This document shows, in pieces, positions 46,912 to 63,861 of a stretch of DNA of 64,000 nt. Both the position numbers and the translations under genes were made by a program. The DNA is taken from contig CBFDSV010000010.1 in assembly GCA_965612735.1 (NCBI GenBank), positions 268-64,267 of the forward strand, in the 5' to 3' direction. This DNA comes from an uncultured bacterium. GTDB taxonomy: Bacteria > Hydrothermota > UBA3072 > B12-G15. Below the pieces are notes generated by a model. It did not search any database, was not told where the DNA came from, and worked only from the letters and a program-made list of their open reading frames with translations. Numbering within the stretch: position 1 is the stretch's first letter; each line of letters starts with the position of its first letter.

Positions 46912-47016
46912 AGGGATAGTTTATCCTCTATATAACCCCTGTCAACATTTCCATTTAATTTGATACTTGATTATTCTTCTGAAATGTATTATTATTAAAA
47001 AAACCAGGAGGTGTCT

Positions 47017-47961
47017 ATGCATAAATGTTTAGTTTTTATAATTGTTTTTGCTGCAACTGGTCTCTTTGCCTCACCAGTGCTTGATGGTGTGATAAGCCCT
47101 TCTGATGGCTGGAATTTTCTTGTTGCAAATCCCGATACCCAGACCTCTTCCTTTGAAGGTGCGGATATTGAATCACTATTTTACTTTGAAACCAGGGACT
47201 CTCTTTATATTGCATTCACCACACAAAACAGGGCTTCATGGGGTGTTGCCTATGGAATTGTCTTTGATACAGACAGGGGAAACTTTTCCGGTTATGTGAG
47301 TGGTGGTGATGCATGGGGAAGAAATATAATCTTTGGTGATGGGATTGACCCCACATTCTGTATTGATTATCAGGTATACATGTGGTGGGATGGTTCAGGT
47401 GGTTCCATAACCGCATGGTATTTTTACAGGTGGAATCAGGACTCATTGAGATTTGAGGACATAGGTTTTCCTATGGAAGACAGGGCTTATACAGGTGACG
47501 CATCAACAGGCCTTCAGTGCATTGAGATGAGATTTCCCCTTGATAAGTTTGGGAATCCTGATTCATTCAGGTTTGTTGCATATATAACGGGTGTAATCAA
47601 TTCTTCTGTTGTGGATATTCTACCCCAGAACCCATCTGTGGAATTCCCTGCAACGGGTGGAGAATGGACAGACCAGGACACCATTGCCACCTTTGTGAGG
47701 ATATATGGCCATGAAGGTATTCCAGAGGCATTCCCGGTTAATGGGAATGTGGTCTTTTATGACAGGGGTTATCTTTTTATTGGTGGAACAGGTGTAGTTG
47801 ATGTAACAATCTCTGATGTTGGTGGAAGGATTGTTCTAAAAAGGAGGCTCAACCTCTCACAATCAAGGACTGTTGTATTTGATAAACCATGCGGCATCTA
47901 CTTCGTCCGTGTTGAAGCAGATGGAGTGGTCAAAACGGGAAAAATAAGCATTATTAAATGA
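47017..47961 (+). CDS. Secreted hypothetical protein with T9SS C-terminal sorting domain
   Basis: AGGAGG RBS then MHKCLVFIIVFAATGLFA signal. C-terminus VVDVTISDVGGRIVLKRRL...GIYFVRVEADG...K. Its stop overlaps the next gene's start. Confidence 0.55.
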   Translation: MHKCLVFIIVFAATGLFASPVLDGVISPSDGWNFLVANPDTQTSSFEGADIESLFYFETRDSLYIAFTTQNRASWGVAYGIVFDTDRGNFSGYVSGGDAWGRNIIFGDGIDPTFCIDYQVYMWWDGSGGSITAWYFYRWNQDSLRFEDIGFPMEDRAYTGDASTGLQCIEMRFPLDKFGNPDSFRFVAYITGVINSSVVDILPQNPSVEFPATGGEWTDQDTIATFVRIYGHEGIPEAFPVNGNVVFYDRGYLFIGGTGVVDVTISDVGGRIVLKRRLNLSQSRTVVFDKPCGIYFVRVEADGVVKTGKISIIK

Positions 47962-49645: not shown

Positions 49646-51247
49646 TCACCACTTCTTTGAATATGTGAGTTTCAAGTACATCTCGTTGTAATCACCCTTT
49701 GAATTGTGATTACTGGAGAATTCAGTTCTAAACCTGAAACTACCAATTACACCAGCATCAAGTTCTGTATCACCGTAGATTGTGGTGGTGGACTCATCTC
49801 CTGTATCAAATGTTATACCAGCAGAGTTTTCAAACATTGAGATTGGGAAGTCAACGGATATATCAAGGTTCTTCATAGAAGAAACACTATCCGTGTATGT
49901 GCATCTCTGATACCCTGTTGAGATGTTTAGATTAGCCGCAGAGAGAAAGCCCATACTTAGTGATAATTGAACTCCATTTGAAACATAAGGGGTTGTTGTA
50001 TCACTGTATGCATTGTTTGAATAGGTCAGGTTGACTGAATTATTCAGGGATGCAACCCTGAAAAACATACCTGTGGAGATGGTTAAAAGGTCGTAACCTC
50101 TTTCTCCACCACCCTCAAGGTCTGTCTCCCTGTAAGGGCTGTACAGTATATTTATATAGGGAAGGTGTGGAATAAAGACACCTGCCTGGAATGTAAAGGT
50201 TCTGAACCTGGTGGTTGTTGTTATCCCCGCTGTGTTGTTGTAATCATTGTTCATTGCAAACATAAATGTTAAGAGGCTTGAAAAACCTGTGTTCAACTGG
50301 ATGTCAAAGCCCCTTCTATCCTTTCTCAACTGCGGATTTCCCGATGTGGTGAACCCTGGTCCAACATATCTGTACCCAAAGGAAAGTGAAGTGGAGCCAA
50401 ATCCAAGCCCTGAAACAATTGAGTATGCATAATCAAAGGAGGTACTTATATTGGGATGAAAATTGCTGGATATCCATTCAGGAAACTCCTCAACATACTC
50501 CTGTTTTATTGTCCTGTCCCTTGTATACTGGGAGACAGCCCCTTCTGTTTTTATGTAAAATGGACTCCCCTCTGAAAAAATCTGGATTTCAGCACCCAGA
50601 ACAAAGTTCTCCTCAGGGGATAGGACAAGTGTTGTATCACTATCACCGTAGGCCTTATAAAAATCAGGGATAGAGCCTGAATCATCCCATGTATGGAGAA
50701 AATTCACAAAGAAATGCCCACCCTCTTCCTTACCAAATCCCACTTTAAGCCCCAGTGCATTCCTGGTGTATGTCCCGTCTGTTGTATCAGAACCAGCAAC
50801 CGCCCTCTTCATCCTTCCACCTGCACCAGCAAGGAAGAAAATCCATGGGTTGAATTTTATAGAAAGCCCATTAACAGGAACACCCTTCAATGTATAATCA
50901 GAGTATTCTGGATAGGAAGTACCAATCTCAATCCCTGATATGGAGAAAACAAAATTTGGTGCCTTTGCCATCCCTTTGATAAGTTTTGATGGTTGCAAAA
51001 GAATCCTGTACTTGTTTATTGCCTGCCTTAATGAACTCTCTTCGGATGAGATGAGTGTATTTATTGACAGTGGCATACCAAAGATCTTCCACTCCGGGTC
51101 AAACATGAATCTGTAAATGGGTCTACCATCCTCATCAGGTGAAGGCACGGGGAAGAACTCTGCCTCAATCCCCAGACTTCCATGGAAACTGAAGAGTTCT
51201 CCTAAAAGCAAAATGGGAAGTAAAAACACAACAATGGCCCTATTCAT
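49646..51247 (-). CDS. Predicted outer-membrane beta-barrel protein, unknown family
   Basis: Signal peptide, alternating hydrophobic beta-strand pattern throughout 533 aa, aromatic C-terminal residue (…YSKKW), no POTRA or plug motifs. Last gene of the four-gene coupled operon. Confidence 0.5.
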   Translation of the reverse strand: MNRAIVVFLLPILLLGELFSFHGSLGIEAEFFPVPSPDEDGRPIYRFMFDPEWKIFGMPLSINTLISSEESSLRQAINKYRILLQPSKLIKGMAKAPNFVFSISGIEIGTSYPEYSDYTLKGVPVNGLSIKFNPWIFFLAGAGGRMKRAVAGSDTTDGTYTRNALGLKVGFGKEEGGHFFVNFLHTWDDSGSIPDFYKAYGDSDTTLVLSPEENFVLGAEIQIFSEGSPFYIKTEGAVSQYTRDRTIKQEYVEEFPEWISSNFHPNISTSFDYAYSIVSGLGFGSTSLSFGYRYVGPGFTTSGNPQLRKDRRGFDIQLNTGFSSLLTFMFAMNNDYNNTAGITTTTRFRTFTFQAGVFIPHLPYINILYSPYRETDLEGGGERGYDLLTISTGMFFRVASLNNSVNLTYSNNAYSDTTTPYVSNGVQLSLSMGFLSAANLNISTGYQRCTYTDSVSSMKNLDISVDFPISMFENSAGITFDTGDESTTTIYGDTELDAGVIGSFRFRTEFSSNHNSKGDYNEMYLKLTYSKKW

Positions 51248-52764
51248 TTCATCTTCCTGATTTTGTATTCCCTTATCTTTATATTCTTTTTATCCAGTTT
51301 CTTCCAGTTATCAGGGGCAATCAACTGGAACTTATCACCTGTGAACCTCACCCCCTTTGTCTCAACTTCTTTCCTCTTACCCTCTTTTATCTCAGCAACC
51401 TTCAGGTCACACACAATCTCCCTCTTTCCTGCCTTCACCAGAAGACCCTTCACATCCTCGGTAATCTTCAGAAAAACAGGATTGTCCCTTTCAATCTTCA
51501 CATTCTTCAAAGTGAATGACCTGTACCTGTCTTCCCTGGGAAGTTTCTTTGTTATCTCAATATCAAAACTTGGCCTTCCCCTCTTTGTCTTAACAAGCAC
51601 CTCACCCCTCTTTTTTCCTGCAATTCCGATTTTTATCTCATCCTTACCCCTTCCTGAACCCTTTGCCTCAATCCTGATAATGTCCCTTCCACCAGCCATG
51701 GTGAACTTATAATTCCCCTTTTTGGGTGTTACCTTTATGTTGAACTCCTTTGCTGGAGCACCTCTGAAGAAGTAGATTTCAACAGTTTTACCCTTCCCTG
51801 GCCTTCCACCTATGAATGGCATCCTCACTATGTTCCTTATCCTCTTTGCTGGGTTCTTCTCTATATCAGAATACCTCAAATGCTCCCCTGCCTCTGTTTT
51901 ATACAGTCTGTGTCCCTCATTATCTGTAATCTGGGATACAGACGCACCAGCAAGGAACAGACCATTCAATTCATCAAGAATTGCGCCAAGTTCAAGTGGA
52001 TTTCTTGATGCATCCCTCACAACGGATATGGGTGTGACGAATATCATTCCGTCTGGTGAACGCCATATACTATCATTCGCCATTCTAAATTCCCAATCAC
52101 CAGACGGTTTTATCTCTATATAATTGCTATCATGCAGATAATAACTTGAATCCTCAGGGAAGAACCTGTTTGAATCGTAAACATAGATATACTTATTCCC
52201 ACCGCGTTCCTCTGTTCTGTATGGAACAATTGTGTGACCCACAAGGCTGTAATCCTTCACCAAGGTCAACATGGGTGGGTCATCCTTTGCCATGTAATAC
52301 TTTATCTGGTCATAGGCATACAGGGCATCATGAAGATGATGACCATTGAATATATCAATAAGCCAGTTTATACCTGCATGGCTCCACTCATGGCACTGCA
52401 TTATGATAATCGCATTCCTCAATGTTGTATCAGCAGGCCCGGCAGTGTCACCTTCAAAAACATATATGGGTCTGCAAAAACCCATGTGCCCTTCTTCATG
52501 GAGAATAAGCAGGCTCAAGAGAGACATGCCAAAGCAGTTTCCCGCAGCAACTGCAAATGCAGCGTTGTATGCTGCATAGAATGCCTGGTCCATGGGGTCT
52601 GCTGGATTTATGCCTATGTAAGATTTTTCAAACAACTCCCAGGGAAGATGGGTGATGCCAAAGTTCTCAAAGTGCCACCCATTTATCTTTGCATAATCAT
52701 CACCCATAACAGGCAATGAAATCAAAACAGTTAAAACTATCAAAATAGACATTGACCTTTTCAT
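51244..52764 (-). CDS. Secreted hypothetical protein with putative thiol/metal hydrolase-like N-domain and Lys/Arg-rich C-terminal tail
   Basis: GGAGGG RBS then MKRSMSILIVLTVLISLPVMG. N-domain has GNCFGMS (GxCxG) next to HEEGH (HExxH-like) plus CHEWSH. The final ~150 aa are ~30% K/R. Confidence 0.45.
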   Translation of the reverse strand: MKRSMSILIVLTVLISLPVMGDDYAKINGWHFENFGITHLPWELFEKSYIGINPADPMDQAFYAAYNAAFAVAAGNCFGMSLLSLLILHEEGHMGFCRPIYVFEGDTAGPADTTLRNAIIIMQCHEWSHAGINWLIDIFNGHHLHDALYAYDQIKYYMAKDDPPMLTLVKDYSLVGHTIVPYRTEERGGNKYIYVYDSNRFFPEDSSYYLHDSNYIEIKPSGDWEFRMANDSIWRSPDGMIFVTPISVVRDASRNPLELGAILDELNGLFLAGASVSQITDNEGHRLYKTEAGEHLRYSDIEKNPAKRIRNIVRMPFIGGRPGKGKTVEIYFFRGAPAKEFNIKVTPKKGNYKFTMAGGRDIIRIEAKGSGRGKDEIKIGIAGKKRGEVLVKTKRGRPSFDIEITKKLPREDRYRSFTLKNVKIERDNPVFLKITEDVKGLLVKAGKREIVCDLKVAEIKEGKRKEVETKGVRFTGDKFQLIAPDNWKKLDKKNIKIREYKIRKMK

Positions 52765-52776
52765 ATCACCCTCCAT

Positions 52777-55149
52777 TTATGGTGAGATTACACCCTTAAC
52801 AGATGCAGAAGGCCTTGAATGATTTCCATTTTTCCCTATACACTGCACCCTGTACCAGTATTCTTTTCCCTTCACAACTGTCCTGTCCATGTATTTATTT
52901 ACCTTGAGGAGTGGACTTATCTGGATAAATCCCCTTGTGGGGTTTTCACTTCTGAACACAACAAAACCAAGATAATCATCTGAAAAACCTGGCTCCCATG
53001 TAATCTCAAGTATACACCCTTCAGCAGGGTTCACTTTAACATTGAATGGCTTGGGTGGTAGAGCAAAATCAAATGTATAGGTCTCAACTGGCACAGATGG
53101 TTCACCAATGTTTCCCAGATAATCAGCAGCCCTCACCCTGTAGTAATATGTGGTCTTTGGCTGGACTGTTGTATCAAGGAATGAGAAGATTGAATCCTCA
53201 GCCCAAATATTGGTTGCTGGTATATCCTCACAGTTGCACCCTTCAGGGAATATAAGGGAATCGCTCACCCTCACCCATGGTCCTGAAGGCCTCTCAGCCC
53301 TCTCAACAATAAATCCGAAAAGGTCCTGCACTGGTGGTGCAACCCATTCCACCTTTATTGCCCTGTTTCTTGCCTTGAGTGCTGAAATAACAGGTGGTGG
53401 AGGTGGGGTCTTCTCTCTGAGTTTCACACACACAGTCTTTGATGTATCACTTATGTTCTGACTCCTGTCAAATGCCTTCACAGAGTATCTATAACAAATG
53501 GGAGAGCCTTCAGGAACAGTATGGTCTTCATATGTGAATGTCCCTGTATCACTGATTGTGGCTATCAAACTGAGTGGATAAATCCTGTACTCCTTCTTTC
53601 TACACTCCCACTGCTTCTGTTCATTCCTCACACTCTCAACACACACACTATCACCACCACAGATACCCCTGTAAATCATATAACCTGCAAGGTCTTTTGG
53701 TGGATGGGCTGGTTTTTCCCATGTGAGTTTAATATACTTCTCGTATCCCTCTCCACGAAGATTCACTGGTGGAGGGGGTGGAGTTGTATCAGGAAGATAA
53801 CCACCAGCAGCAGCAGAAAGTGCGCTCCTATTCAATGCCATGTCTATTGTCCTCACCCTGTACCAGTAGGTCTTTTCACCTTCTGGTGACCGCAGAGATG
53901 GGTCAGTGTCCCTGAATGTTACCAGTGATGGTCCTGTATCAGGTGGCTGTGGCACGAGGGTTGCAACAATTGTGCTATCACCAAGAGAATCAGCCTTTGT
54001 GAACCTGTAAACCCTGTAACCCTTCACACCATTTATCTCCTTATTCCCCTTTATATCCTTGTTCAGCCTGTACCATCTCACAAGGAGTGCATCGGTCTGT
54101 TGAACTACTTCAACACCATACGGAACAGCAGGTGGTGTTTTATCAACAGGTTTTGCAGTCTTCCATGAACTCCATGTACCTGGCCTACCAAGTATATCGT
54201 ATGCCCTGACCCTGTAGTAATATTTCGTTCCATTGAAGGGGCCATCAATTGAATCTCCCTGAACCACATGTTTTACTGGATTACCGTTCTCATCCCATCT
54301 AACATAGTCAAGGAAACAGTAGGATTCTGGAATGGTATCACCATTTATTGTAACATTGCATTTCCCCATGGCAGTTGCCTCATTAATCCTTCTGGCAGTT
54401 CCTGTTGATTTTTTCCTCTGTATCTCAAAACCTGTTGCGTTGTCCATCTCATCCCACAGGAGTTGAACCTGATTATCACCTGGAATTGCCCTCAGGTTCG
54501 GTGGTGCAGGGAGTTTTGTTGCCTTTCCTGCAACCACCCTTACATCTGTGGCCACGACAAGCCCTTCATGCCCCTTCCTGTCAACAGCAACAATCTTATA
54601 CCAGTATGTCTTTCCATAAGTGAGATTTTCGTCCATGTATCCAAACCCCATGGCAAGTGCAATTTTGTAGTAAGCCTTTGCAAGGAACTTGACCTTTTCA
54701 AAGACCTCACCTGTATCTGGAATCACGGTCAAACTGCACGGGTCAAAGGAAACATAACCACCTGGTAGCACTTTCCTCAATCTGAATCCTCCGCCGGGTG
54801 GAAATCCTGTACCCGGTTTTCTACGTGTCTTTTCAGGCTTATAGGCAAGTGCCTTTGATATTGCGTTCCACTCCTCACTTCCTACAGGAATAATTGCCTT
54901 GAGTTTATCACAGTTTGATACCCTCCTTACCGGTGCAGAATTTATTGGTGTTGAAGGATAGGATGCAGAGAGATTGTCTTTTCTGTAAATATTGTAACCA
55001 TATGTTCCGCTCATTGGAGTCCATATCAGGAGAACAAAACTGTTTCTACCATCCTTACCACCGGTTGCATAGGCAGATGGGTAAAGGTTTAAACCCAGCA
55101 GAATTAGAAAAAGCAGTGATTTCTTAATCATATTTAAGCCTCCTTTCAT
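52777..55149 (-). CDS. Secreted multi-FN3-domain protein
   Basis: Signal peptide; about six fibronectin-III-like modules, each ending in a (T/K)YWY(R/K)V.A.D…GN.S motif, separated by TPPPPP-type linkers. The ATG overlaps the stop of the upstream giant gene. Confidence 0.55.
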   Translation of the reverse strand: MKGGLNMIKKSLLFLILLGLNLYPSAYATGGKDGRNSFVLLIWTPMSGTYGYNIYRKDNLSASYPSTPINSAPVRRVSNCDKLKAIIPVGSEEWNAISKALAYKPEKTRRKPGTGFPPGGGFRLRKVLPGGYVSFDPCSLTVIPDTGEVFEKVKFLAKAYYKIALAMGFGYMDENLTYGKTYWYKIVAVDRKGHEGLVVATDVRVVAGKATKLPAPPNLRAIPGDNQVQLLWDEMDNATGFEIQRKKSTGTARRINEATAMGKCNVTINGDTIPESYCFLDYVRWDENGNPVKHVVQGDSIDGPFNGTKYYYRVRAYDILGRPGTWSSWKTAKPVDKTPPAVPYGVEVVQQTDALLVRWYRLNKDIKGNKEINGVKGYRVYRFTKADSLGDSTIVATLVPQPPDTGPSLVTFRDTDPSLRSPEGEKTYWYRVRTIDMALNRSALSAAAGGYLPDTTPPPPPVNLRGEGYEKYIKLTWEKPAHPPKDLAGYMIYRGICGGDSVCVESVRNEQKQWECRKKEYRIYPLSLIATISDTGTFTYEDHTVPEGSPICYRYSVKAFDRSQNISDTSKTVCVKLREKTPPPPPVISALKARNRAIKVEWVAPPVQDLFGFIVERAERPSGPWVRVSDSLIFPEGCNCEDIPATNIWAEDSIFSFLDTTVQPKTTYYYRVRAADYLGNIGEPSVPVETYTFDFALPPKPFNVKVNPAEGCILEITWEPGFSDDYLGFVVFRSENPTRGFIQISPLLKVNKYMDRTVVKGKEYWYRVQCIGKNGNHSRPSASVKGVISP

Positions 55150-58100
55150 TCTATGTAAAAGCCCTGTGAGGAACTGAAACCAGCGGTAACTTCAACAGAG
55201 GCGCACATCACCCAGAGGACACATCCTTCAAGCCCCACGGTTCCCTGGAATGCAAATGGTGTTACTCCAGGGATAATTTCAAGTTCTCCCCATGCTGCGG
55301 CTGACACAAGCCCCCACAGGATTTCACCATGCAGATATATTCCCACAACAGCAACAACATAGGGAAGGGGAAGCCCTACCATGTACTGGATTGTCTCATC
55401 AGGTCCAACAACATTGAGGAACGCACCCACACCTGCGTAGATTTCAATCCCTCCAGAAAAGATACCAAAGTTCACATCAAAATTAATGTCGCCAAATCCA
55501 TAAACACCTGTCAGTTTGTCAGGAAGGTTGTCTATATTCACTCCAAATTTTCTGTTTGTACTGCTTCCATCAAGAAGAACCCATGCCTTGCTTTTTGGTG
55601 CATTCACACCCAGATAAATCCCTCCAGCAAGCCCACCACCAAGTCTGAAGCCACTTATGGTGACCGCTGCCCTGCCCTGGAGATAATATGACAGTGGTTC
55701 AATGTGCCAGTTCATCTGGCCATCAGCCTCAAGCCCTGCTGCAATTGCGCTGAAGTCTATATTCCCCTTTATCTCGCCTTCAAGGGTTGCATGGGCAAGG
55801 TCACAGGTGAGTGCAACACTTCCTGTTAATTCAACATTGCCTATACCTGTAACATCAAGAAACATTATGCCAGCCGCTCTGAACATAACCATGGTCGGGG
55901 TCACTACCATCTTCGCCTCAACACTTCCACCACCACTGGCAACAAGAATGAGCCCTTCTGTTGCCTCAATCCTCCCACCTATAACAATCCTCTTCAATTC
56001 ATCTGACTCAATGGTTGCGCACCCCCATAGACTACCAAAGGTTGTGGTGTTGTTGGAGGGTGGAAGCACAAGGGGGTGATGCTCTGAAGAAGACATGCAT
56101 ATCTGTATAATGGAACTATCCACTGTAATCTTTGAGTAAATGGGTGAACTGGAGAAAAGAGAGATTTCTGGAGTTCCTGTTCCCCTGAAACCATTCTGGT
56201 CTTCCTCATCATAACCAACCTCCTGGAACTTCATATCAGATAGACCAGACCCCCAATCCCTCTTCAGCATAAACTTTTTGGGGTCAATCTTTACATATCT
56301 TCCATAATATGGTGGGTCTGATTTATTGTACTTTGCATCGTGTATTGTTATCATCCTGTCAGGCTGTCCAAAGAACTTGATATAAACCCCACACTTTACA
56401 ACAAGTTCACCAGGTTTTGAGGGGTCATAGGAAGAGAGTGCAGCAGAATCAAGGGTGATGTAAAATCCATCAAACTTCTGATTTGCAGAATTCTGGTTGA
56501 AATAAAACCTTCCTATGTTTCCATCAGCAAGCATCTCTCCCCATATTATATTGAAACCTTTAGAGAAGTGGACCGGTTCGTATATCTCGGCATTAGTATA
56601 TATAATCTCACCCATTTTGATACTTGTTATCCCCCTCTCAGAGGATATACCCACACCCCAGTAATCAAGTTGAATGGTATCTTTGAATGCAACAAGACCC
56701 CCAACAAAACTTGCTGTGGAAGTAACACCCAATTTCCTGAATGGAAAGGCTGTTGAGGAATCCTTTGAACCCACAGGGTAAGGAATCCTGAAGTATCCTC
56801 CCAGGTCTGAATTGAAGGCAGAGTTGCCTGCAAACTGGAAAAGGAGATTCAATGTTGTATCCTTCCTGTTTCCGAGGTCTGTTCCGAGAACCGCATCAAA
56901 GGATGTTTTTGCAGCATAACCTGGTGTTCCAGGGATGCCAAGTTCCTCCTCCTGTGGTGGATAGTACTCCCTCATCCTGTTGTACTCACCTGTTACACCC
57001 TGCATTCCAATGTTCATCCATCCACACATGTAATGGCCTGTGAACCTTATTGGCTTCCTGGAATCGGGTGAATGAACAATAAGTGTATCTTTGTTTTTAA
57101 GCCTTATTGATAGTCCTGGAAGGGTATCAATACCTGTGTAACCATGGAATGTATCCCCTGATACTGGTGGCTTGAATTCAATTGGGCCTGCAATGAGTCT
57201 GAAATTTCCTTCTGTCCAGGCAAGTTCAAAACCACCCCATGCAATCCTGCTCAGTGATTTCAATTTACCTGAGATTGAAAGTGTAGTATCCACAATCAGT
57301 GTATCATAGGAGGCAACAGACTTACCACCTTTACCGTCTGAAACCCCATTCTCACCCTCTGGTAAATAAACCTTGCCTTCATAGAATCTGGCACCCGTAA
57401 CCCTGCAATTCATTATTGTGAGTTCTCCATTGTAAAGTTCTACCTTAAACCCAATGGGTTCAAGGGAAACAAAGGCCCATGGCTTGCTCAGGGTCATGTT
57501 TGCAGAAAAACCTTCAGGCCTTATTACTGCGTTTGTGAACCTGTACTCTCCATAGAGATAACCTGTGTTTGAGGTATCCATCTCTGGATTTTCAATCGTA
57601 TGCCCGCTGAGCAACGTTATTCCCACATCTGGTGTCACTCTCCTTTCAAGGTCAATCTTCAACTCTCCATCTGCCCTCACCTTTATTCCTGTACCAGAAA
57701 GCACAAACACAGGGACATCTGCAGGTGTTAATTCTCTGTAAAATTCTATCAATGGCTTTGTTTTCTGCTTGAATGGACCAAACTTGAACCCACCGCATCC
57801 TGTATCTGAGGCAAGACAGGTTGGTGAAACACTCAATGTTACATTCGCAGAATCTGGCCAGAGATGAACCCTGTGGAGGAGAACAGGATAACCATATACC
57901 TCTACTCTTGCTGGAGGACTGAAATCTTTAACAATCTCTCCCTCTGTCACTGTTATTGTATCTGGAGAGGATTGTGTTCCCTTAAGGTTTGAAAAACTCA
58001 CATTGAATTTATACTGTACTGCAATTATTGGTGGGGCTGCTGGATTGGTGTAGTTTCTTATTGTCTGAATAACATATGTTTCACCACTTCCCGAGAGTGA

Positions 58101-58961
58101 ATTCAGGGTTGATGAACCATCATAGGTTATGTTTGATACAATAAATTCACCAATCTTCATTGTCCTGGGAAGTGATGTGCCTGAGGGTTTTTCTGTATTG
58201 AATGTCCAGACCTGACTCCTGCCACGATTCTTTCCCAGTTCAAAACCATTCTGGTCATATGCCCGCACCTGCCATGCAAAGGTTTTGTTCTGTATAAAAA
58301 ATCGTGTCCTGAAGGTGTATGTAAAACTTGTCCCCTTTATGTTTTCCTTCTTGAACACGGGTCTGTTTGATGCAATTGCCTCCATTGGTGTCTGCCCCTT
58401 CAGAACCTCAACAATAATGAGTGTATAACTCGGCCTTACACCAGACGGAAGTGGTGCAGAGGGTGTCCAGGAAAATGTGATACTCCTTCCCTTTATTGTG
58501 TATCCATCCCTTGGGGTTATCAGTCTTGGTGCTTCAGGTTCAGCAACACTTGCTGAATAACAGTTGCTTCCCAGAAGGACATTGGTTCTAACCTGGAATA
58601 CCCTTATACATATCTGGTAATTGCCTGGTGGTATCTTCCCTGTTCTGACAATGTAGTCCCTGTATTCTGCATTGTATCTCACATTTGTAATCTCTTTTAT
58701 ATCAGAAGGTCTTATCCTGCTTGTGCCAGAGGGAAGTGATAATGTATTGGAATTTGCACGGAATACCTCTCCTGCCTTTGTCTCCGTTATTGTCAATTCA
58801 AGATAAACCTGGTATGTTGTGGATGTTGGATTTGTCAGGTCAACCCACCATAGTTTCTCAACCTCCATTCTGCTGGGTGGTGGTCTGTGTATTCTTACAT
58901 TGATCTGTGCAGAAAGGCTCAGAAAGAGAAAAAAGAAAAGAAAAACAGAATATTTTTTCAT
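55146..58961 (-). CDS. Giant secreted hypothetical protein (1271 aa)
   Basis: AAGGAGGG RBS then MKKYSVFLFFFLFLSLSAQ signal. Two ~130-aa N-terminal Ig-like repeats, long beta-rich remainder, no T9SS tail. First gene of the coupled operon. Confidence 0.5.
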   Translation of the reverse strand: MKKYSVFLFFFLFLSLSAQINVRIHRPPPSRMEVEKLWWVDLTNPTSTTYQVYLELTITETKAGEVFRANSNTLSLPSGTSRIRPSDIKEITNVRYNAEYRDYIVRTGKIPPGNYQICIRVFQVRTNVLLGSNCYSASVAEPEAPRLITPRDGYTIKGRSITFSWTPSAPLPSGVRPSYTLIIVEVLKGQTPMEAIASNRPVFKKENIKGTSFTYTFRTRFFIQNKTFAWQVRAYDQNGFELGKNRGRSQVWTFNTEKPSGTSLPRTMKIGEFIVSNITYDGSSTLNSLSGSGETYVIQTIRNYTNPAAPPIIAVQYKFNVSFSNLKGTQSSPDTITVTEGEIVKDFSPPARVEVYGYPVLLHRVHLWPDSANVTLSVSPTCLASDTGCGGFKFGPFKQKTKPLIEFYRELTPADVPVFVLSGTGIKVRADGELKIDLERRVTPDVGITLLSGHTIENPEMDTSNTGYLYGEYRFTNAVIRPEGFSANMTLSKPWAFVSLEPIGFKVELYNGELTIMNCRVTGARFYEGKVYLPEGENGVSDGKGGKSVASYDTLIVDTTLSISGKLKSLSRIAWGGFELAWTEGNFRLIAGPIEFKPPVSGDTFHGYTGIDTLPGLSIRLKNKDTLIVHSPDSRKPIRFTGHYMCGWMNIGMQGVTGEYNRMREYYPPQEEELGIPGTPGYAAKTSFDAVLGTDLGNRKDTTLNLLFQFAGNSAFNSDLGGYFRIPYPVGSKDSSTAFPFRKLGVTSTASFVGGLVAFKDTIQLDYWGVGISSERGITSIKMGEIIYTNAEIYEPVHFSKGFNIIWGEMLADGNIGRFYFNQNSANQKFDGFYITLDSAALSSYDPSKPGELVVKCGVYIKFFGQPDRMITIHDAKYNKSDPPYYGRYVKIDPKKFMLKRDWGSGLSDMKFQEVGYDEEDQNGFRGTGTPEISLFSSSPIYSKITVDSSIIQICMSSSEHHPLVLPPSNNTTTFGSLWGCATIESDELKRIVIGGRIEATEGLILVASGGGSVEAKMVVTPTMVMFRAAGIMFLDVTGIGNVELTGSVALTCDLAHATLEGEIKGNIDFSAIAAGLEADGQMNWHIEPLSYYLQGRAAVTISGFRLGGGLAGGIYLGVNAPKSKAWVLLDGSSTNRKFGVNIDNLPDKLTGVYGFGDINFDVNFGIFSGGIEIYAGVGAFLNVVGPDETIQYMVGLPLPYVVAVVGIYLHGEILWGLVSAAAWGELEIIPGVTPFAFQGTVGLEGCVLWVMCASVEVTAGFSSSQGFYIE

Positions 58962-58974
58962 ACGGCCCTCCTTT

Positions 58975-59003
58975 ATTTTATAAACCCTACCACAGTGAAA
59001 CAA
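58975..59003 (-). promoter_or_regulatory. Candidate sigma-70 promoter (TTGTTT-17-TAAAAT) for the four-gene envelope operon
   Basis: Minus-strand reading TTGTTTcactgtggtagggtttaTAAAATaaaggagggccgtATG. Confidence 0.35.
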
Positions 59004-59033
59004 AAAATCAAGAAAACAACCTCCAGGACTTTC

Positions 59034-60962
59034 TTAGATGTACTTCTCAAACCACTTGATTATCTGATTGAGTCTTTCTACCCTCCTATCAGGTCTTCCA
59101 TGCCTTGAAAGTTCGTGAGTCTCTCCGGGAAAGACGACAAATTTAACCTTCTTGTCCATCATCTTCATTGCCACATACAGCTCCTCACCCTGATTTATTG
59201 GAGCCCTGAAGTCCATGGTTGAATGGATGATGAGCAGGGGAACATCAATATTCCCTGCATACTTCAGTGGTGACATGTCCCAGAGATACTGATAATCTTC
59301 GTCCTTTCTGATACCACCAGTAAAACTCATGATGAAATGAAAGCCCATGTCAGAACTCAAAAAGGATATTTCATCGTAAACACCCCGCTGGGCTACACCC
59401 ACTTTAAATATCTTTGTGTGGGAGAGAATCCAGGCAGTGGAAAAACCACCGTAACTTCCTCCTAAAAGCCCTATCCTTTCACCATCTATGTATGGGAGTT
59501 TCTTTAATTTCCTCACAAATCTTTTTATGTCCTCTGTATCAGGTATTCCCCACTTCCTGTGCAGGGCAAGGGCAAAATCCTCTCCATACCCTACACTTCC
59601 ATGGGGGTTTGAGAAGAAAACAGCGTATCCCATTGCATTGAGCACATGGAATTCATGGAAAAATGAATATCCATAACAGGCATGAGGCCCTCCATGAACC
59701 TCAACAAGGAGTGGATACTTTTTATTCTTCTTCATGTCTGGTGGTTTCATTATCCAGCCCTCAACAGTATCACCCCCAGAGCCCTTCACTGTAATCCTCT
59801 CTGGATAGGAGAGATCGTATTTTTTTAATAGATTTTTATTGGGTGAAAATACTGGTTTTGACTTTCCAGATTTTTGAACATATATGGTGCATGGGTCAAT
59901 GGGGTTTGATGCTCCAAAAACACATCTATCCTTGTTAGTATCAAATGCCAGTACCTTGAAGTCCCCTGTTATATATGGAGTAAACTCCTTTGTTTTGATA
60001 TTCAGCCTGTATATATTCCCTCTTCCATTTTCTGTTACTGGAAGGAAAACAGATTCACCATCATCAGAAACCTTGAGAAGGTCTATCCTTGAACCTCCCA
60101 GGTCGTCAAGTATGGGAGTTCCAATATACACATCCAATCCCTCTGTCAGTTTTATAAATTCACTGCCCCTGATAGAACGATAGTAGATATGTCCATGCTT
60201 GAATCTGTACTCCTCTGGTTTTTCAAAACCATATATCAAAATTCCCCTGCCATCCTTTGTGTATTGAACCTGTGAAATAAAAAGTTTGATGGGTAACTTT
60301 ATCCTTTTAATCCTTCCACTCTTCACATTCACTATAAAGATATTTGTGAATCTGAATCTTTTCCAGTCAAAGGACTCAGGGGCTGTGCAAAGAATCTGTT
60401 CACCATCAGGTGATACATCCCTCAAACCAAATCTCTTTTCACCTGGAACAATCTCTTTAACCCTACCTGTCTTGATGTTCACTGATACAACAGGGAATAG
60501 TGGTACTTCCTTATAGAAAAAGTTCGCTGTCTTGTAGGGAAGGGATTCTATCTCAAAACATACAACATCCTGTTCAGGGGTTTCATACAGATTTGTGTAG
60601 ATAACTCTTTTGTCAGGTGAAGGGAAAAGATGAAGAGGGGTCTTTTTTTCAAACTCTGCAATAACAAAGGATTCCCCTCCATCAACAGGTATTCCCCTTA
60701 TAAACGATTTTTTTTCTTTACCCGCCTCAATAAAATAAATGGTCTTACCATCTACTGAATACCTTATTGTGTTAAAGTTTTTATCCCTGATAAAGGTTCT
60801 GCACTTTTTCTTCTCAAGAGGGCAGAGTAAAAGGTCTGATGTATAGGAGTACTTCTCCTTTTTCTTTTTTATCCTTTCAATCCTGACAGCAAAAAAATCT
60901 CCTGAGGGAGAAATAACTATCTCCCTCAGGAACTTCAATTTATAAAGGTCTTCGGGTTTCAT
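59034..60962 (-). CDS. S9-family serine peptidase (prolyl oligopeptidase / acylaminoacyl-peptidase type) with N-terminal beta-propeller
   Basis: Catalytic GGSYGG nucleophile elbow, downstream Asp and His regions, N-terminal TolB-like propeller repeats. Confidence 0.8.
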   Translation of the reverse strand: MKPEDLYKLKFLREIVISPSGDFFAVRIERIKKKKEKYSYTSDLLLCPLEKKKCRTFIRDKNFNTIRYSVDGKTIYFIEAGKEKKSFIRGIPVDGGESFVIAEFEKKTPLHLFPSPDKRVIYTNLYETPEQDVVCFEIESLPYKTANFFYKEVPLFPVVSVNIKTGRVKEIVPGEKRFGLRDVSPDGEQILCTAPESFDWKRFRFTNIFIVNVKSGRIKRIKLPIKLFISQVQYTKDGRGILIYGFEKPEEYRFKHGHIYYRSIRGSEFIKLTEGLDVYIGTPILDDLGGSRIDLLKVSDDGESVFLPVTENGRGNIYRLNIKTKEFTPYITGDFKVLAFDTNKDRCVFGASNPIDPCTIYVQKSGKSKPVFSPNKNLLKKYDLSYPERITVKGSGGDTVEGWIMKPPDMKKNKKYPLLVEVHGGPHACYGYSFFHEFHVLNAMGYAVFFSNPHGSVGYGEDFALALHRKWGIPDTEDIKRFVRKLKKLPYIDGERIGLLGGSYGGFSTAWILSHTKIFKVGVAQRGVYDEISFLSSDMGFHFIMSFTGGIRKDEDYQYLWDMSPLKYAGNIDVPLLIIHSTMDFRAPINQGEELYVAMKMMDKKVKFVVFPGETHELSRHGRPDRRVERLNQIIKWFEKYI

Positions 60963-61455: not shown

Positions 61456-63861
61456 TCATTTCACAATAAAAAACTTTTTTATTACTGAAGGTTCCGATGA
61501 AATTTTCAGGAAGTAGAGCCCTGGAGGGAGAAAATCCAGTTCCAGAACCCTTCTCTTCTGCTTTTCAACAATTGCTGTCTGAAGAACCCTTCCTGTTATA
61601 TCAATTATCTGAATGGGCAACTCTTTTTCTGTACCATTCATAATAACAACCCTATTTATACCGATGGAGAAACTCACAGTAAAGGGGTTTTCTGTTTTTA
61701 TTGTGATGGATTTTGAGAAGACCTTTTCTGTTCCAAAGTTACCTGATATTCTTAAAACATGGAATCCTTGAGATAGTTTCCCTCTCCACATCCTGGAGTA
61801 CCCAGCAAGGGTTTCAATTGTCTTCCATTCTCCATTTTTTCTTTTCTGTACAGCGAATGATAATGGGTCATTTTCTGATTCCCAGAAGAGGGTCACCACA
61901 TTTCCTGAAACAATTGCTGAAAGATTTATCCTCATTGCTAGCAGTGCTGATATAAAATCTGATTGGGCGCGGGGTGATATTTCATAATCAGAATTATAAG
62001 GGGTGGATGTGTCATACTGCCTGAGAATGCCCTGAATATGCTGATTTGTTATCCAATCAGGTCCCCAACCATCTATGTCCGTATCACTGTCTATCCATAT
62101 ATGGCCTGAATCCCCATTGATGTCAACGATTGTATCAAGCGTGTTCTGGCCGGATGGCCAGGGTGATGAAAAGGCCGTATCCACATTCAGTATAAAGACA
62201 AGTTTGCCCTCGTATGCCTCACCCATCTGGGATACACTGATGGTCTCTGGTGGAGGAACTGTTCCTGTACCGAGTTTTGTTATCCATTGACCAACATAAT
62301 CAAGTTCTGTCTCTCCAGCAAAACTGGTTATGGTTCCAATAACCTTTAGTGATTCTCCCTGATGTATAGACTGGATATAGGTTGCTCCATCGTGGTGGCA
62401 TGCAATCCCTGATGTGGAGTCCTGTATGTAAAAATGTAAGTAAGTTTTTGCAAAGGTACTCTCACCTGCTGTAACTACACCATGAACAATCGCCTCATAT
62501 CCTCCATATACGGGTCTTCCATCTATATCATTCACCCTCAGGTCAATTATATCCATTCTTCCCCAGAAAAATCCCCTTGAGGTATCGGAAAGACTCTCCC
62601 TGCCTCCATTGTCAACCGCCCTTATGAAGAAGGAGTCAAGCCTAACACCCCTATTCTGTCCATTGAGCACACACCTGAAGGTGTCACCACTTTCCTGTTC
62701 CATCTGAATAGAATCAAATCCTGCTGAACTTAACCAGTAGTAAAACATGGCTGTGTCAACACTTCCATTGTCTGTTATGACTGCATGGAAGGTATCAGGT
62801 TGCAGCGCCTCAGGAACATATGGTGTTCTCCATATCCTTCCAATTGAGGGTGGAGGGTCATAAACACTATTTCCCTCACCGGGTGTCCCATAGGTTTCAT
62901 TGGATGCAAGCCAGTTGGCTCCATTTGTATTGTCGTATGAAGGGTCAATGAGTTCAGCACTTGGTCCAGATCCATCCGCCTGTGTTGGCCATGGGCTTGA
63001 GTCATCATAGGGAACACTATCAACAAGTGTAGAGTCTGAATTTCTCAACCATATCACCTCACCCCCATTGGAGAGACTGACAGCAGTCATATTCCCGATT
63101 ACCTGGTCATTTCCATTCAGTATATCATCCTGATACTCACTGACTGATTGGAGGGAATCCATGTTTTTTGTTATAATGAGGTATTCTGCTGGAGGAAGTT
63201 CAATAGCCGGTATTATGAACGAACCATTATTATCTAACAAAAGCCACCTTGTTAAATTGACCGTATCAGAACTGGGATTGTAAATTTCAAGCCACTCAAA
63301 GTAGTTATCATCACCAAGGGATGTGGATGGATTATACATAATTTCATTTATTACAACCCCTGAATCTTCATGGGAAGGCATGCTGAAAACCGCCCTGTCT
63401 ACGTATATTACAGCATCACCATCCCAGGAACCTGAAACATCATAGAATCTGATCTGGGCTACTGCAGAATCTGCACCTGATGGTGGTCTCAAAGTATCTG
63501 TGGTTAGAACCTGCCAGTATGGTTTATCAACTGAGTAACTCCCATCATAGTATCCAGATATGTAGGAACCGTTTCCATACCAGAGCACACAAACCCTTGC
63601 CCTTCCAGCAGGGTCATTATCAAAAACAAAGAAGGTGAAAACATATAAACTATCTTCACTGATTGAAGGAACAGCATTGCTCAACCTCTGGGTTGTTGTT
63701 GAGTTAAAATAAATTCTGCAGGAGGAACCTCCATGAAAAACAGTATCGGTATTTTCAGTCATGGTTATGGCAGATGTCGCATCCCAGGAAGTAGGCAGAC
63801 CACCTGACCAGTTCTCAAAGTCTCCATTAAGAATAAGATTACCAAGAATTAAAAAAATCAT
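61456..63861 (-). CDS. Secreted lamin-tail-domain (LTD) protein with CBM-like N-terminus and T9SS C-terminal sorting domain
   Basis: AGGAGG RBS. N-terminal NGDFENW motif typical of CBM4/9-like modules. LTD signature VINEIMYNPS...DDNYFEWLEIYN. C-terminus IQIIDITGRVL...GLYFLKISS...K. Confidence 0.6.
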   Translation of the reverse strand: MIFLILGNLILNGDFENWSGGLPTSWDATSAITMTENTDTVFHGGSSCRIYFNSTTTQRLSNAVPSISEDSLYVFTFFVFDNDPAGRARVCVLWYGNGSYISGYYDGSYSVDKPYWQVLTTDTLRPPSGADSAVAQIRFYDVSGSWDGDAVIYVDRAVFSMPSHEDSGVVINEIMYNPSTSLGDDNYFEWLEIYNPSSDTVNLTRWLLLDNNGSFIIPAIELPPAEYLIITKNMDSLQSVSEYQDDILNGNDQVIGNMTAVSLSNGGEVIWLRNSDSTLVDSVPYDDSSPWPTQADGSGPSAELIDPSYDNTNGANWLASNETYGTPGEGNSVYDPPPSIGRIWRTPYVPEALQPDTFHAVITDNGSVDTAMFYYWLSSAGFDSIQMEQESGDTFRCVLNGQNRGVRLDSFFIRAVDNGGRESLSDTSRGFFWGRMDIIDLRVNDIDGRPVYGGYEAIVHGVVTAGESTFAKTYLHFYIQDSTSGIACHHDGATYIQSIHQGESLKVIGTITSFAGETELDYVGQWITKLGTGTVPPPETISVSQMGEAYEGKLVFILNVDTAFSSPWPSGQNTLDTIVDINGDSGHIWIDSDTDIDGWGPDWITNQHIQGILRQYDTSTPYNSDYEISPRAQSDFISALLAMRINLSAIVSGNVVTLFWESENDPLSFAVQKRKNGEWKTIETLAGYSRMWRGKLSQGFHVLRISGNFGTEKVFSKSITIKTENPFTVSFSIGINRVVIMNGTEKELPIQIIDITGRVLQTAIVEKQKRRVLELDFLPPGLYFLKISSEPSVIKKFFIVK

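What the first reader, a model, noticed from the sequence alone, without database searches (positions are those of the whole stretch)
49646..59003. Four-gene, translationally coupled operon of giant uncharacterised envelope proteins ending in an outer-membrane beta-barrel
Four minus-strand ORFs run back to back: a 1271-aa protein, a 790-aa FN3 array, a 506-aa protein and a 533-aa beta-barrel. Every junction is an ATGA or TAAATG overlap, which points to obligate co-expression and probably fixed stoichiometry. All four carry Sec signal peptides and none has the T9SS tail found on the other large secreted proteins in this window. The operon has a promoter candidate and is bounded by genes on the opposite strand. 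None of the four matches a family I can name: no POTRA, no TonB plug, no usher. A secreted giant protein, an FN3 stalk, a small basic-tailed protein and a dedicated barrel, all co-translated, looks like a self-contained surface machine such as a new secretion, adhesion or S-layer-anchoring module. This is the best candidate in the window for an undescribed system.
Basis: partly seen in the sequence, partly recalled or inferred. Interest (0 to 1): 0.75.

Follow-up and report, generated by a model that had tools for sequence, protein, structure and literature searches.

The report
Tagged giant protein with dedicated barrel
This is a real, conserved four-gene operon with no named relatives, in which a giant secreted protein carries an N-terminal tag that across many uncultured bacteria is encoded next to, or fused to, one family of large outer-membrane barrels, pointing to an undescribed route for placing proteins on the cell surface.

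Summary
The four minus-strand genes exist as described: A 1271 aa, B 790 aa, C 506 aa, D 533 aa. They are tightly packed and conserved in order in related genomes with unrelated flanks. None matches a curated family, except FN3 in B.

The operon joins two separable modules.
1. The first ~260 residues of A (here called NTM) pair with barrel D. D models as a roughly 26-strand outer-membrane barrel with no plug or POTRA domain. A orthologues with NTM have D in the locus in 17 of 21 cases. Orthologues without NTM never do (0 of 6). Other D-family barrels sit beside unrelated NTM proteins, and two independent NTM–barrel fusions exist.
2. The A body, the FN3 protein and protein C form a trio found in at least five phylum-level lineages. 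C has a papain-like fold with invariant Cys81, His181 and Asp201.

Most likely, D is the cognate export pore or anchor for NTM-tagged proteins, and C processes A or B. TamAB, usher, two-partner secretion and T9SS membership were tested and not met. The nearest described thing is the TANFOR toxin class, whose export route is unknown. All function here is inferred from genomics and models.

The parts
55146..58961 (-). Gene A: a 1271-aa secreted giant protein made of a signal peptide, the NTM tag and the A body.
   Evidence: ORF and ribosome-binding site seen. Orthologues are 44-50% identical in the WOR-3-type clade and 28-33% identical in other phyla. No Pfam or PDB match.
58176..58904 (-). NTM: the N-terminal two-domain module of A (aa ~20-262). 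It starts right after the signal-peptide site and carries the motifs PPPNQL..EDLW, G..PEG.Y..C, PRLISP and YAWQV.
   Evidence: Alignment A6. The module is found alone at the N-terminus of proteins of 215-3400 aa. It is fused to D-family barrels. hhalign to the N-terminus of Bacteroidota giants encoded beside D-like barrels gives probability 93.8%. The TANFOR match is weak, E 0.004-0.009.
55149..58175 (-). A body (aa 263-1271): a conserved module of about 1000 aa that is always C-terminal in its relatives.
   Evidence: In other proteins it is fused behind FG-GAP, TIG or PPC domains. No relation to TamB: hhalign probability 0.2%.
55149..55964 (-). C-terminal Gly-rich hydrophobic region of A (aa ~1000-1271). 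The last 71 residues have no Lys or Arg, and the protein ends in GFYIE.
   Evidence: The alternating beta-strand pattern is as strong as in barrel D. Orthologues without NTM end in GFEIY or GFEIF. Its nature is unresolved.
52777..55149 (-). Gene B: a 790-aa secreted array of six FN3-like domains with poly-proline linkers.
   Evidence: Pfam fn3 at 39.5 bits. Repeat and linker positions. Orthologues range from 790 to 1043 aa.
51244..52764 (-). Gene C: a 506-aa secreted protein with a papain-like thiol peptidase domain followed by basic beta-sandwich domains.
51997..52689 (-). Peptidase-like domain of C (aa ~30-260 in 510-aa numbering). Candidate triad codons: Cys81 at 52534-52536, His181 at 52234-52236, Asp201 at 52174-52176.
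   Evidence: C81, H181, D201 and N203 are invariant in 27 sequences. Cys81 opens helix 81-95, His181 begins strand 180-191, and Asp201 follows strand 194-200. The GNCFGMSL / H / DPN motifs persist in relatives at about 22% identity.
49646..51247 (-). Gene D: a 533-aa outer-membrane beta-barrel of about 26 strands, with no plug or POTRA domain, ending in SKKW.
58962..59033 (-). 72-nt spacer between the same-strand upstream S9-peptidase-like gene and gene A. It contains the AAGGAGG site.
   Evidence: No sigma-70-like promoter or terminator match was found here.

Best explanation
The operon encodes one example of a widespread, undescribed pairing. Secreted proteins that begin with a ~250-residue two-domain tag (NTM) pair with a dedicated outer-membrane barrel of about 26 strands (the D family).

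Proposed course of events:
1. All four proteins cross the inner membrane by Sec.
2. The NTM of A docks to, or inserts into, barrel D.
3. D then acts as the export pore and/or the surface anchor for A.
4. The body of A works with its two constant partners: the FN3 rod B as a spacer or scaffold, and the papain-like thiol peptidase C, which most likely cleaves or matures A or B.

What is shown: the genes, their conservation, the barrel and peptidase folds, and the NTM-D genomic coupling. What is inferred: docking, export or anchoring, and proteolytic processing.

In logic this resembles two-partner secretion (an N-terminal recognition domain plus a cognate barrel) and the pairs of T9SS type-B C-terminal domains with PorP/SprF barrels. 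The parts are unrelated to either.
For: 1. Co-variation. 17 of 21 full-length A orthologues with NTM have D in the locus. Three of the four exceptions (L021, L022, L024) are second cassettes in MAGs whose first cassette (L008, L013, L019) has D. The fourth (L032) is cut at a contig end. All 6 orthologues lacking NTM, from KSB1, Calditrichaceae, Cloacimonadota, Acidobacteriota and UBA2214, have no D in the locus.
2. Fusions. Two independent proteins have NTM joined to the N-terminus of a D barrel: an 850-aa protein on three contigs and a 952-aa protein. NTM E-values are ~1e-35.
3. Other cargo. D-family barrels at 28-31% identity lie beside non-A proteins of 384-1245 aa that carry NTM. All 10 non-A-B-C D loci with at least 2 kb of upstream sequence contain NTM: seven by direct HMM hit (L101-L104, L106, L110, L111), one in the barrel fusion itself with under 0.5 kb of upstream contig (L112), and two with the NTM-like giant detected only by hhalign (L006, L087).
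4. Bacteroidota. In Pedobacter endophyticus and a second lineage, a D-like barrel is followed by a 2286-2381-aa giant whose N-terminus aligns to NTM (hhalign probability 93.8%, E 1.7e-7), and then by an FN3 protein.
5. Tag-like behaviour. NTM sits right after the signal peptide on proteins with many different cargo domains. In a sample of 37, 8 carry Peptidase_C25, and others carry RCC1, PD40, RTX, PKD or LamG.
6. Barrel size. D models as a plug-less, POTRA-less barrel of about 26 strands. It is closest in size to ushers and MtrB, which hold or pass protein.
7. Recurrent peptidases. Cysteine peptidases of three unrelated families recur in D loci: papain-like C here; a C-like fragment directly upstream of the L112 fusion; a 700-950-aa protein family in L103, L104 and L106 of which only the L106 member hits Pfam Peptidase_C13 (the others are linked by BLAST); and C25 fused to NTM in L110.
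8. Recurrent Ig-like partner. An Ig-like repeat protein (FN3 or PKD) also recurs in these loci.
Against: - No experiment and no complex model supports this. The direction of transport and the location of A are not known.
- C and B track the A body, not NTM or D. They stay with A in lineages that lack NTM and an adjacent D, so C is unlikely to be simply a tag-removing enzyme.
- In an ordinary barrel the N-terminus is periplasmic, so the NTM-barrel fusions may mean NTM is a periplasmic or lumenal docking domain rather than an exported signal.
- A's own C-terminal ~270 residues look like amphipathic beta strands with a beta-signal-like end in some orthologues. A might therefore insert into a membrane by itself.
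- D's structural hits are generic for large barrels.
Confidence: 0.5

Rival explanations
1. Nutrient-capture complex. D is an uptake channel and NTM merely tethers surface enzymes and binders to it, in the manner of SusCD or RagAB. The enzymes degrade a substrate and the barrel imports the products.
Against: D has no plug and no TonB-box domain. The flanking genes are not conserved between loci. A tethered enzyme still has to cross the outer membrane, so an export role is not removed. The A body has no recognisable enzyme or binding domain.
Confidence: 0.15
2. Interbacterial toxin delivery related to the TANFOR polymorphic toxins. A would be the delivery protein and C the toxic effector encoded downstream.
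For: The window's A gives the only hit to the TANFOR model (E 0.004-0.009). TANFOR proteins are Sec-dependent giants with Fn3 neighbours, and sometimes the toxin is encoded in the next gene (PMC7073777). True TANFOR operons have a PKD protein upstream and an unknown 750-800-aa protein downstream, which parallels the non-A-B-C D loci. C's best structural neighbour is a T6SS effector domain, 9jdd.
Against: The TANFOR score is 16-17 bits against a cutoff of 67, and only 1 of 17 NTMs hits it at all. A's C-terminus is conserved, not polymorphic. C is the most conserved protein of the set, has its own Sec signal, and has no candidate immunity gene beside it. No toxin domain was found among the 37 NTM proteins sampled.
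Confidence: 0.1
3. Envelope-spanning structural or lipid-transfer bridge. A is held in the inner membrane, or in the outer membrane, by its hydrophobic C-terminus and reaches D with its N-terminus, like an inverted TamB-TamA pair.
For: Hydropathy peaks of 1.5-1.9 in the last ~110 residues, and no basic residues in the last 71. A is about the size of TamB. One of 20 orthologues gives a TamB Pfam hit at E 0.057.
Against: hhalign of the A profile to E. coli TamB gives probability 0.2%, and the D profile to TamA likewise. The hydropathy is borderline and alternates like beta strands. The A body is fused behind adhesion-type domains such as FG-GAP, TIG and PPC in other proteins, which fits a surface protein better.
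Confidence: 0.07
4. No functional unit: four unrelated secreted proteins that happen to be adjacent.
For: No experimental data. The junction overlaps are not conserved.
Against: The gene order is kept at 34-50% identity in many loci with different flanks. NTM and D co-vary, and fusions exist.
Confidence: 0.02

Closest known systems
TANFOR-domain polymorphic toxins of Bacteroidetes (TIGR02542; Jana, Salomon and Bosis 2020, PMC7073777)
   Same: Both are large Sec-dependent proteins defined by an N-terminal domain followed by an FN3-like domain, carrying many different downstream regions. Fn3 or PKD proteins are encoded alongside. Their export route across the outer membrane is unknown. The window's A gives a weak TANFOR hit.
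   Different: The score is far below the cutoff and is absent in orthologues and in other NTMs. A has a conserved, non-toxin C-terminus and no immunity gene. No toxin domains were found in the NTM proteins sampled. A cognate barrel has not been described for TANFOR.
Two-partner secretion (type Vb: TpsA with an N-terminal TPS domain, plus a TpsB barrel)
   Same: The logic matches: a ~250-residue N-terminal recognition module on large, variable cargo, with a dedicated barrel gene next to the cargo gene.
   Different: There is no TPS, ShlB or POTRA family match. D has about 26 strands rather than 16 and has no POTRA domains. NTM is predicted to be Ig/FN3-like rather than a beta-helix. Extra constant partners, FN3 and a thiol peptidase, are present.
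T9SS cargo handling (Ig-like C-terminal domain signal, PorP/SprF or PorV barrels, PorU C25 sortase-like peptidase)
   Same: An Ig-like sorting domain, cargo-adjacent barrels, a cysteine peptidase in the pathway, and the same kinds of cargo (C25, PKD, FN3) in the same group of phyla.
   Different: The tag is N-terminal. No Por_Secre_tail or PorP/SprF match was found. The barrel is unrelated. The same genome has other proteins with T9SS-like tails, so this would be a separate route.
LapA-LapG-LapE adhesin retention system
   Same: A giant surface protein held by its N-terminal module in an outer-membrane channel, plus a periplasmic papain/transglutaminase-like cysteine peptidase acting on it.
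   Different: LapA leaves by a type I system and LapE is TolC-like. LapG is Peptidase_C93, and no such hit was found. Here the peptidase tracks the A body rather than the tag.
Chaperone-usher pore (FimD/PapC) and MtrB
   Same: These are among the best structural matches to D, and they are large plug-able barrels that hold or pass protein.
   Different: No Usher or PapD family match, no plug or terminal domains, and no chaperone gene. The similarity is no better than to FhuA or porins.

Membership tests
TamA/TamB translocation and assembly module | TamA: an Omp85 16-strand barrel with POTRA domains | tested here: not met
   No Pfam or NCBIfam hit. hhalign of the D profile to E. coli TamA gives probability 0.2%. 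The model has about 26 strands and no POTRA domain.
TamA/TamB translocation and assembly module | TamB: an AsmA-like/DUF490 protein with an N-terminal signal anchor | tested here: not met
   No hit for the window's A at E<=1. One of 20 orthologues hits at E 0.057. hhalign of the A profile to E. coli TamB gives probability 0.2%.
Chaperone-usher pathway | An usher with plug and terminal domains, plus a PapD-like chaperone and pilin genes | tested here: not met
Two-partner secretion (type Vb) | A TPS (Haemagg_act) domain in the cargo, and a ShlB barrel with POTRA in the transporter | tested here: not met
   No such Pfam hits at E<=1.
Type IX secretion cargo | A C-terminal Por_Secre_tail or type-B C-terminal sorting domain | tested here: not met
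   Absent from A-D at E<=1 and from the 20 A orthologues.
TANFOR polymorphic toxins | An N-terminal TIGR02542 domain above the cutoff of 67 bits | tested here: not met
   15.9-17 bits, E 0.004-0.009, in the window's A only. No hit in 3 orthologues, in the barrel fusion or in the Bacteroidota giant. Only 1 of 17 NTMs hits.
TANFOR polymorphic toxins | A variable C-terminal toxin domain with an adjacent immunity gene | tested here: not met
   The A C-terminus is conserved across phyla. There is no small ORF after A, C or D.
TANFOR polymorphic toxins | A Sec signal and Fn3 or PKD proteins in the neighbourhood | tested here: met
   Signal-like N-terminus. B is an FN3 array. Compare with PMC7073777.
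Papain-like (clan CA) cysteine peptidase (protein C) | Cys at the start of a helix, then His and Asp/Asn on following strands, all conserved | tested here: met
   C81, H181, D201 and N203 are invariant in 27 sequences. Their positions relative to helix 81-95 and strands 180-191 and 194-200 fit. The motifs are kept in relatives at about 22% identity.
Papain-like (clan CA) cysteine peptidase (protein C) | Fold similarity to solved members | tested here: inconclusive
Papain-like (clan CA) cysteine peptidase (protein C) | Thiol-dependent hydrolytic activity | not testable with these tools
   Needs enzyme assays with a C81A control.
Outer-membrane beta-barrel protein (protein D) | A signal peptide, an all-beta closed barrel and a C-terminal aromatic residue | tested here: met
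Fibronectin type III array (protein B) | Pfam fn3 above the gathering score, with repeated units | tested here: met
   39.5 bits against 25. Six repeat motifs.
LapG-type adhesin release system | A Peptidase_C93 protease, an RTX adhesin exported by type I secretion and a TolC-like pore | tested here: not met
   No C93, RTX or OEP hits in A-D. A has an N-terminal Sec-type signal.

The most novel reading that the evidence does not exclude
NTM plus the D-family barrel, with an associated cysteine peptidase and an Ig-like repeat protein, constitute a previously unrecognised and widespread outer-membrane protein export and anchoring pathway. It would be found in WOR-3-type, Bacteroidota and related bacteria, would be distinct from types V and IX, and could also be the missing export route for TANFOR-like giant proteins.
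Probability: 0.3. Interest if true: 0.9.

Novelty: new variant of a known kind. Interest (0 to 1): 0.72.

Why it matters
Only a few ways are known for two-membrane bacteria to move proteins across or onto the outer membrane, and each was a landmark when found. The evidence here points to another way, built from parts with no named relatives: an N-terminal tag and a cognate barrel.

- It is widespread. The tag and the A body together give 3192 protein clusters at 50% identity.
- It occurs in poorly known phyla, and also in at least one cultured genus, Pedobacter, so it is directly testable.
- It gives a concrete candidate for how TANFOR-like giant proteins leave the cell, a question the 2020 paper left open.
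- It defines three new families worth structural work: the A body, the GNCFGMSL thiol peptidase and the D barrel.

Tried and rejected
- Pfam and NCBIfam scans of all four proteins found only FN3.
- PDB sequence searches with C, with A and with the A profile found nothing.
- TamA/TamB was rejected by hhalign against the E. coli proteins.
- TANFOR membership was rejected by scans of orthologues and of 17 NTMs.
- An improved NTM HMM did not reach the Bacteroidota giants. Only profile-profile comparison did.
- A sigma-70 promoter and terminator scan gave no site in the upstream gap and fewer sites than in shuffled sequence.
- Word-indexed homologue searches for D found only 10 proteins, even with a profile. 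The metagenome pattern scan was needed.
- The afdb50 fold library was unavailable.
- Foldseek of C against the PDB gave no match at E<=0.001.
- Literature searches for SaeA, DUF928 and related terms found nothing useful.
- Hydropathy and beta-moment scans could not settle whether the A C-terminus is embedded in a membrane.
Full report
**Observation**

Four long minus-strand ORFs lie back to back at 49646-58961.
- A: 1271 aa from an ATG preceded by AAGGAGG.
- B: 790 aa.
- C: 506 aa, or 510 aa from an earlier ATG.
- D: 533 aa.

A/B and C/D share ATGA overlaps. B's TAA is followed directly by an ATG, but the conserved Met (M5 invariant), a GGAGG site and the public gene calls favour the start 12 nt later.

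The upstream neighbour (59034-60962) is on the same strand, 72 nt away. The claim that the operon is bounded on both sides by opposite-strand genes is therefore wrong. A sigma-70-type scan finds no promoter in that gap.

Identical proteins are in public data only as 'hypothetical protein [bacterium]'. Relatives of C at 41-43% identity are labelled candidate division WOR-3.

**Known families**

Pfam and NCBIfam recognise only FN3 in B (39.5 bits), plus a sub-threshold TANFOR match in A (15.9 bits against a cutoff of 67). PDB sequence searches with C, A and a 20-sequence A profile find nothing. There is no POTRA, plug, usher, TPS, AsmA/TamB or T9SS-tail hit. hhalign of the A and D profiles against E. 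coli TamB and TamA gives probability 0.2% each.

**Synteny**

The A-B-C-D order recurs at 34-50% identity in many contigs with unrelated flanking genes. The unit is therefore real. Junctions in orthologues vary from a 47-nt overlap to a 101-nt gap. Translational coupling is a local feature, not a conserved one.

**Protein D**

**Protein C**

A model built from 27 sequences (pLDDT 76) has an alpha/beta N-terminal domain and C-terminal beta-sandwiches.
- Foldseek agrees only weakly: 9jdd has probability 0.93 but E 0.19.
- Cys81 at the start of a helix, His181 at the start of a strand, and Asp201/Asn203 are invariant.
- These motifs persist in distant relatives at about 22% identity from many phyla. 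There the same module follows LamG and LGFP repeats, and it is not covered by any Pfam model.

I read C as an active thiol enzyme of the papain-like clan, distant from all solved members.

**Two modules**

A profile scan of species-representative genomes with C found about 30 loci in which A, B and C are adjacent. They come from WOR-3-type MAGs, KSB1, Calditrichaceae, Cloacimonadota, Acidobacteriota/Terriglobales and UBA2214. D follows C only in the WOR-3-type clade.

The reason appears to be the first ~260 residues of A, which I call NTM.
- A orthologues with NTM have D in the locus in 17 of 21 full-length cases. Three exceptions are second cassettes in MAGs whose first cassette has D, and the fourth is cut by a contig end. 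All six orthologues without NTM lack an adjacent D.
- P0008, found on three contigs, and a second protein (L112) are fusions of NTM to the N-terminus of a D barrel.
- A metagenome scan with the D profile found barrels at 28-31% identity next to unrelated proteins of 384-1245 aa that carry NTM. Some loci have two or three such proteins. All 10 non-A-B-C D loci with at least 2 kb of upstream sequence contain NTM: seven by direct HMM hit, one in the barrel fusion itself (L112, which has under 0.5 kb of upstream contig), and two with the NTM-like giant detected only by hhalign.
- In Pedobacter endophyticus and another lineage, a D-like barrel is followed by a 2286-2381-aa giant whose N-terminus aligns to NTM (hhalign probability 93.8%), and then by an FN3 protein.

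**Breadth**

phmmer of A (aa 1-1200) against 1.84 billion cluster representatives gives 3192 hits at E<=1e-3. In the 150 best hits, which are the only ones listed, they split in two.
- NTM sits at the N-terminus of proteins of 215-3400 aa. In a sample of 37 such proteins, the downstream domains include Peptidase_C25 (8 of 37), GEVED, RCC1, PD40, RTX, PKD and LamG. None is a toxin domain.
- The A body is always C-terminal, in proteins of about 900-2435 aa. In long relatives it sits behind FG-GAP, TIG or PPC domains.

NTM therefore behaves like a sorting or docking tag. The A body behaves like a C-terminal functional or anchoring module.

**Recurring cast in D loci**

D loci that lack A-B-C also contain the following:
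- a ~465-aa protein ending in a PKD domain;
- NTM proteins, two of which are NTM-C25 peptidases;
- a 700-950-aa protein family, of which only the L106 member hits Pfam Peptidase_C13 (2.5e-08); the L103 and L104 members are linked to it by BLAST alone;
- in L112, a C-like fragment directly upstream of the fusion.

A tagged protein, an Ig-like repeat protein, a cysteine peptidase and the barrel thus recur together, with non-homologous substitutions. This is the pattern expected of a functional system.

**Closest known**

TANFOR proteins of Bacteroidetes (PMC7073777) are Sec-dependent giants. They are defined by an N-terminal domain followed by an FN3-like domain, have Fn3 and PKD neighbours, and have no known export route. 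Their operons have a ~450-aa PKD lipoprotein upstream and an unknown 750-800-aa protein downstream, much like the D loci found here.

Membership fails, however. Only the window's A touches the TANFOR model, far below the cutoff. A's C-terminus is also conserved rather than polymorphic.

**Mechanism**

- Most likely (about 0.5): D is the cognate outer-membrane partner for NTM-tagged proteins, acting as a pore and/or an anchor. A is one such cargo. B is a rod-like scaffold, and C processes A or B.
- Against a simple tag-removal role for C: C and B follow the A body even where NTM and D are absent.
- Unresolved: the last ~270 residues of A are Gly-rich and hydrophobic with an alternating pattern. 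The final 71 residues have no Lys or Arg, and NTM-less orthologues end in an aromatic residue. This region could be a membrane beta domain, transmembrane helices or a solenoid core.
- Rivals: a nutrient-capture complex, a toxin system with C as the effector, an envelope bridge, or chance adjacency. Each is weighed in its own section.

**Verdict**

Everything functional is inferred from comparative genomics and predicted structures.

Noticed in passing
L033-L086 (for example L033:6654-9545, L042:6084-9395, L049:4595-8305): The peptidase-plus-beta-sandwich module of C, with motif GNCFGMSLE, also ends large proteins of 650-1400 aa in Cyanobacteria, Actinomycetota, Bacteroidota, Betaproteobacteria and Planctomycetota. 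There it sits behind LamG and LGFP repeats. No Pfam model covers it. This is a broad, unnamed family of papain-like enzymes.
   Followed up: partly
L021, L022, L024 compared with L008, L013, L019: Three MAGs carry two A-B-C cassettes each. One has barrel D and one does not, although both A copies have NTM. One barrel may serve both cassettes.
   Followed up: partly
L089/L101/L102 (850-aa protein P0008) and L112:485-3343: Two independent natural fusions join the NTM tag to the N-terminus of a D-family barrel. In L101, a separate 1245-aa NTM protein lies immediately upstream of the fusion.
   Followed up: yes
L110 (1532-15961), L104, L106, L103, L097: Loci in another lineage hold one or two D barrels, up to three NTM proteins (two with Peptidase_C25), a repeated ~465-aa family ending in a PKD domain, and a 700-950-aa protein family (L103, L104, L106) of which only the L106 member hits Peptidase_C13.
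   Followed up: partly
L006 (Pedobacter endophyticus CP064939.1 568468-590171) and L087/L088: The barrel-giant-FN3 cluster lies beside LytTR-type response regulators and, in L087, a histidine kinase. This hints at regulated expression. L006 also has a thiol-activated cytolysin family gene nearby.
   Followed up: no
window 55149-55361 (A aa 1201-1271): The last 71 residues of A contain no Lys or Arg, six Glu, two invariant Cys (1247, 1253) and the near-invariant motif GEILWGLVSA.AWG. No explanation so far accounts for this composition.
   Followed up: partly
window 59034-60962 (-): A 642-aa gene that by its sequence looks like an S9 prolyl-oligopeptidase-type serine peptidase lies 72 nt upstream on the same strand. 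No terminator-like site lies between it and A. Its orthologues are not next to the cassette in other loci.
   Followed up: partly
window 61456-63861 (-) and 47011-47961 (+): Two flanking ORFs end in sequences that look like T9SS C-terminal sorting tails (for example ...GLYFLKISSEPSVIKKFFIVK). The organism probably uses T9SS for other cargo. I did not test this with a family scan.
   Followed up: no
P0113, P0109 and other proteins in alignment A8: The A body also occurs as the C-terminal ~900 residues of proteins of up to 2435 aa, whose N-terminal parts carry FG-GAP, TIG or PPC domains.
   Followed up: partly
L007, L026-L029, L031 (A orthologues of 1340-1378 aa): A orthologues outside the WOR-3-type clade replace NTM with a different N-terminal region of about 300 aa and unknown nature. 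Five give a probably spurious NusA_N hit.
   Followed up: no
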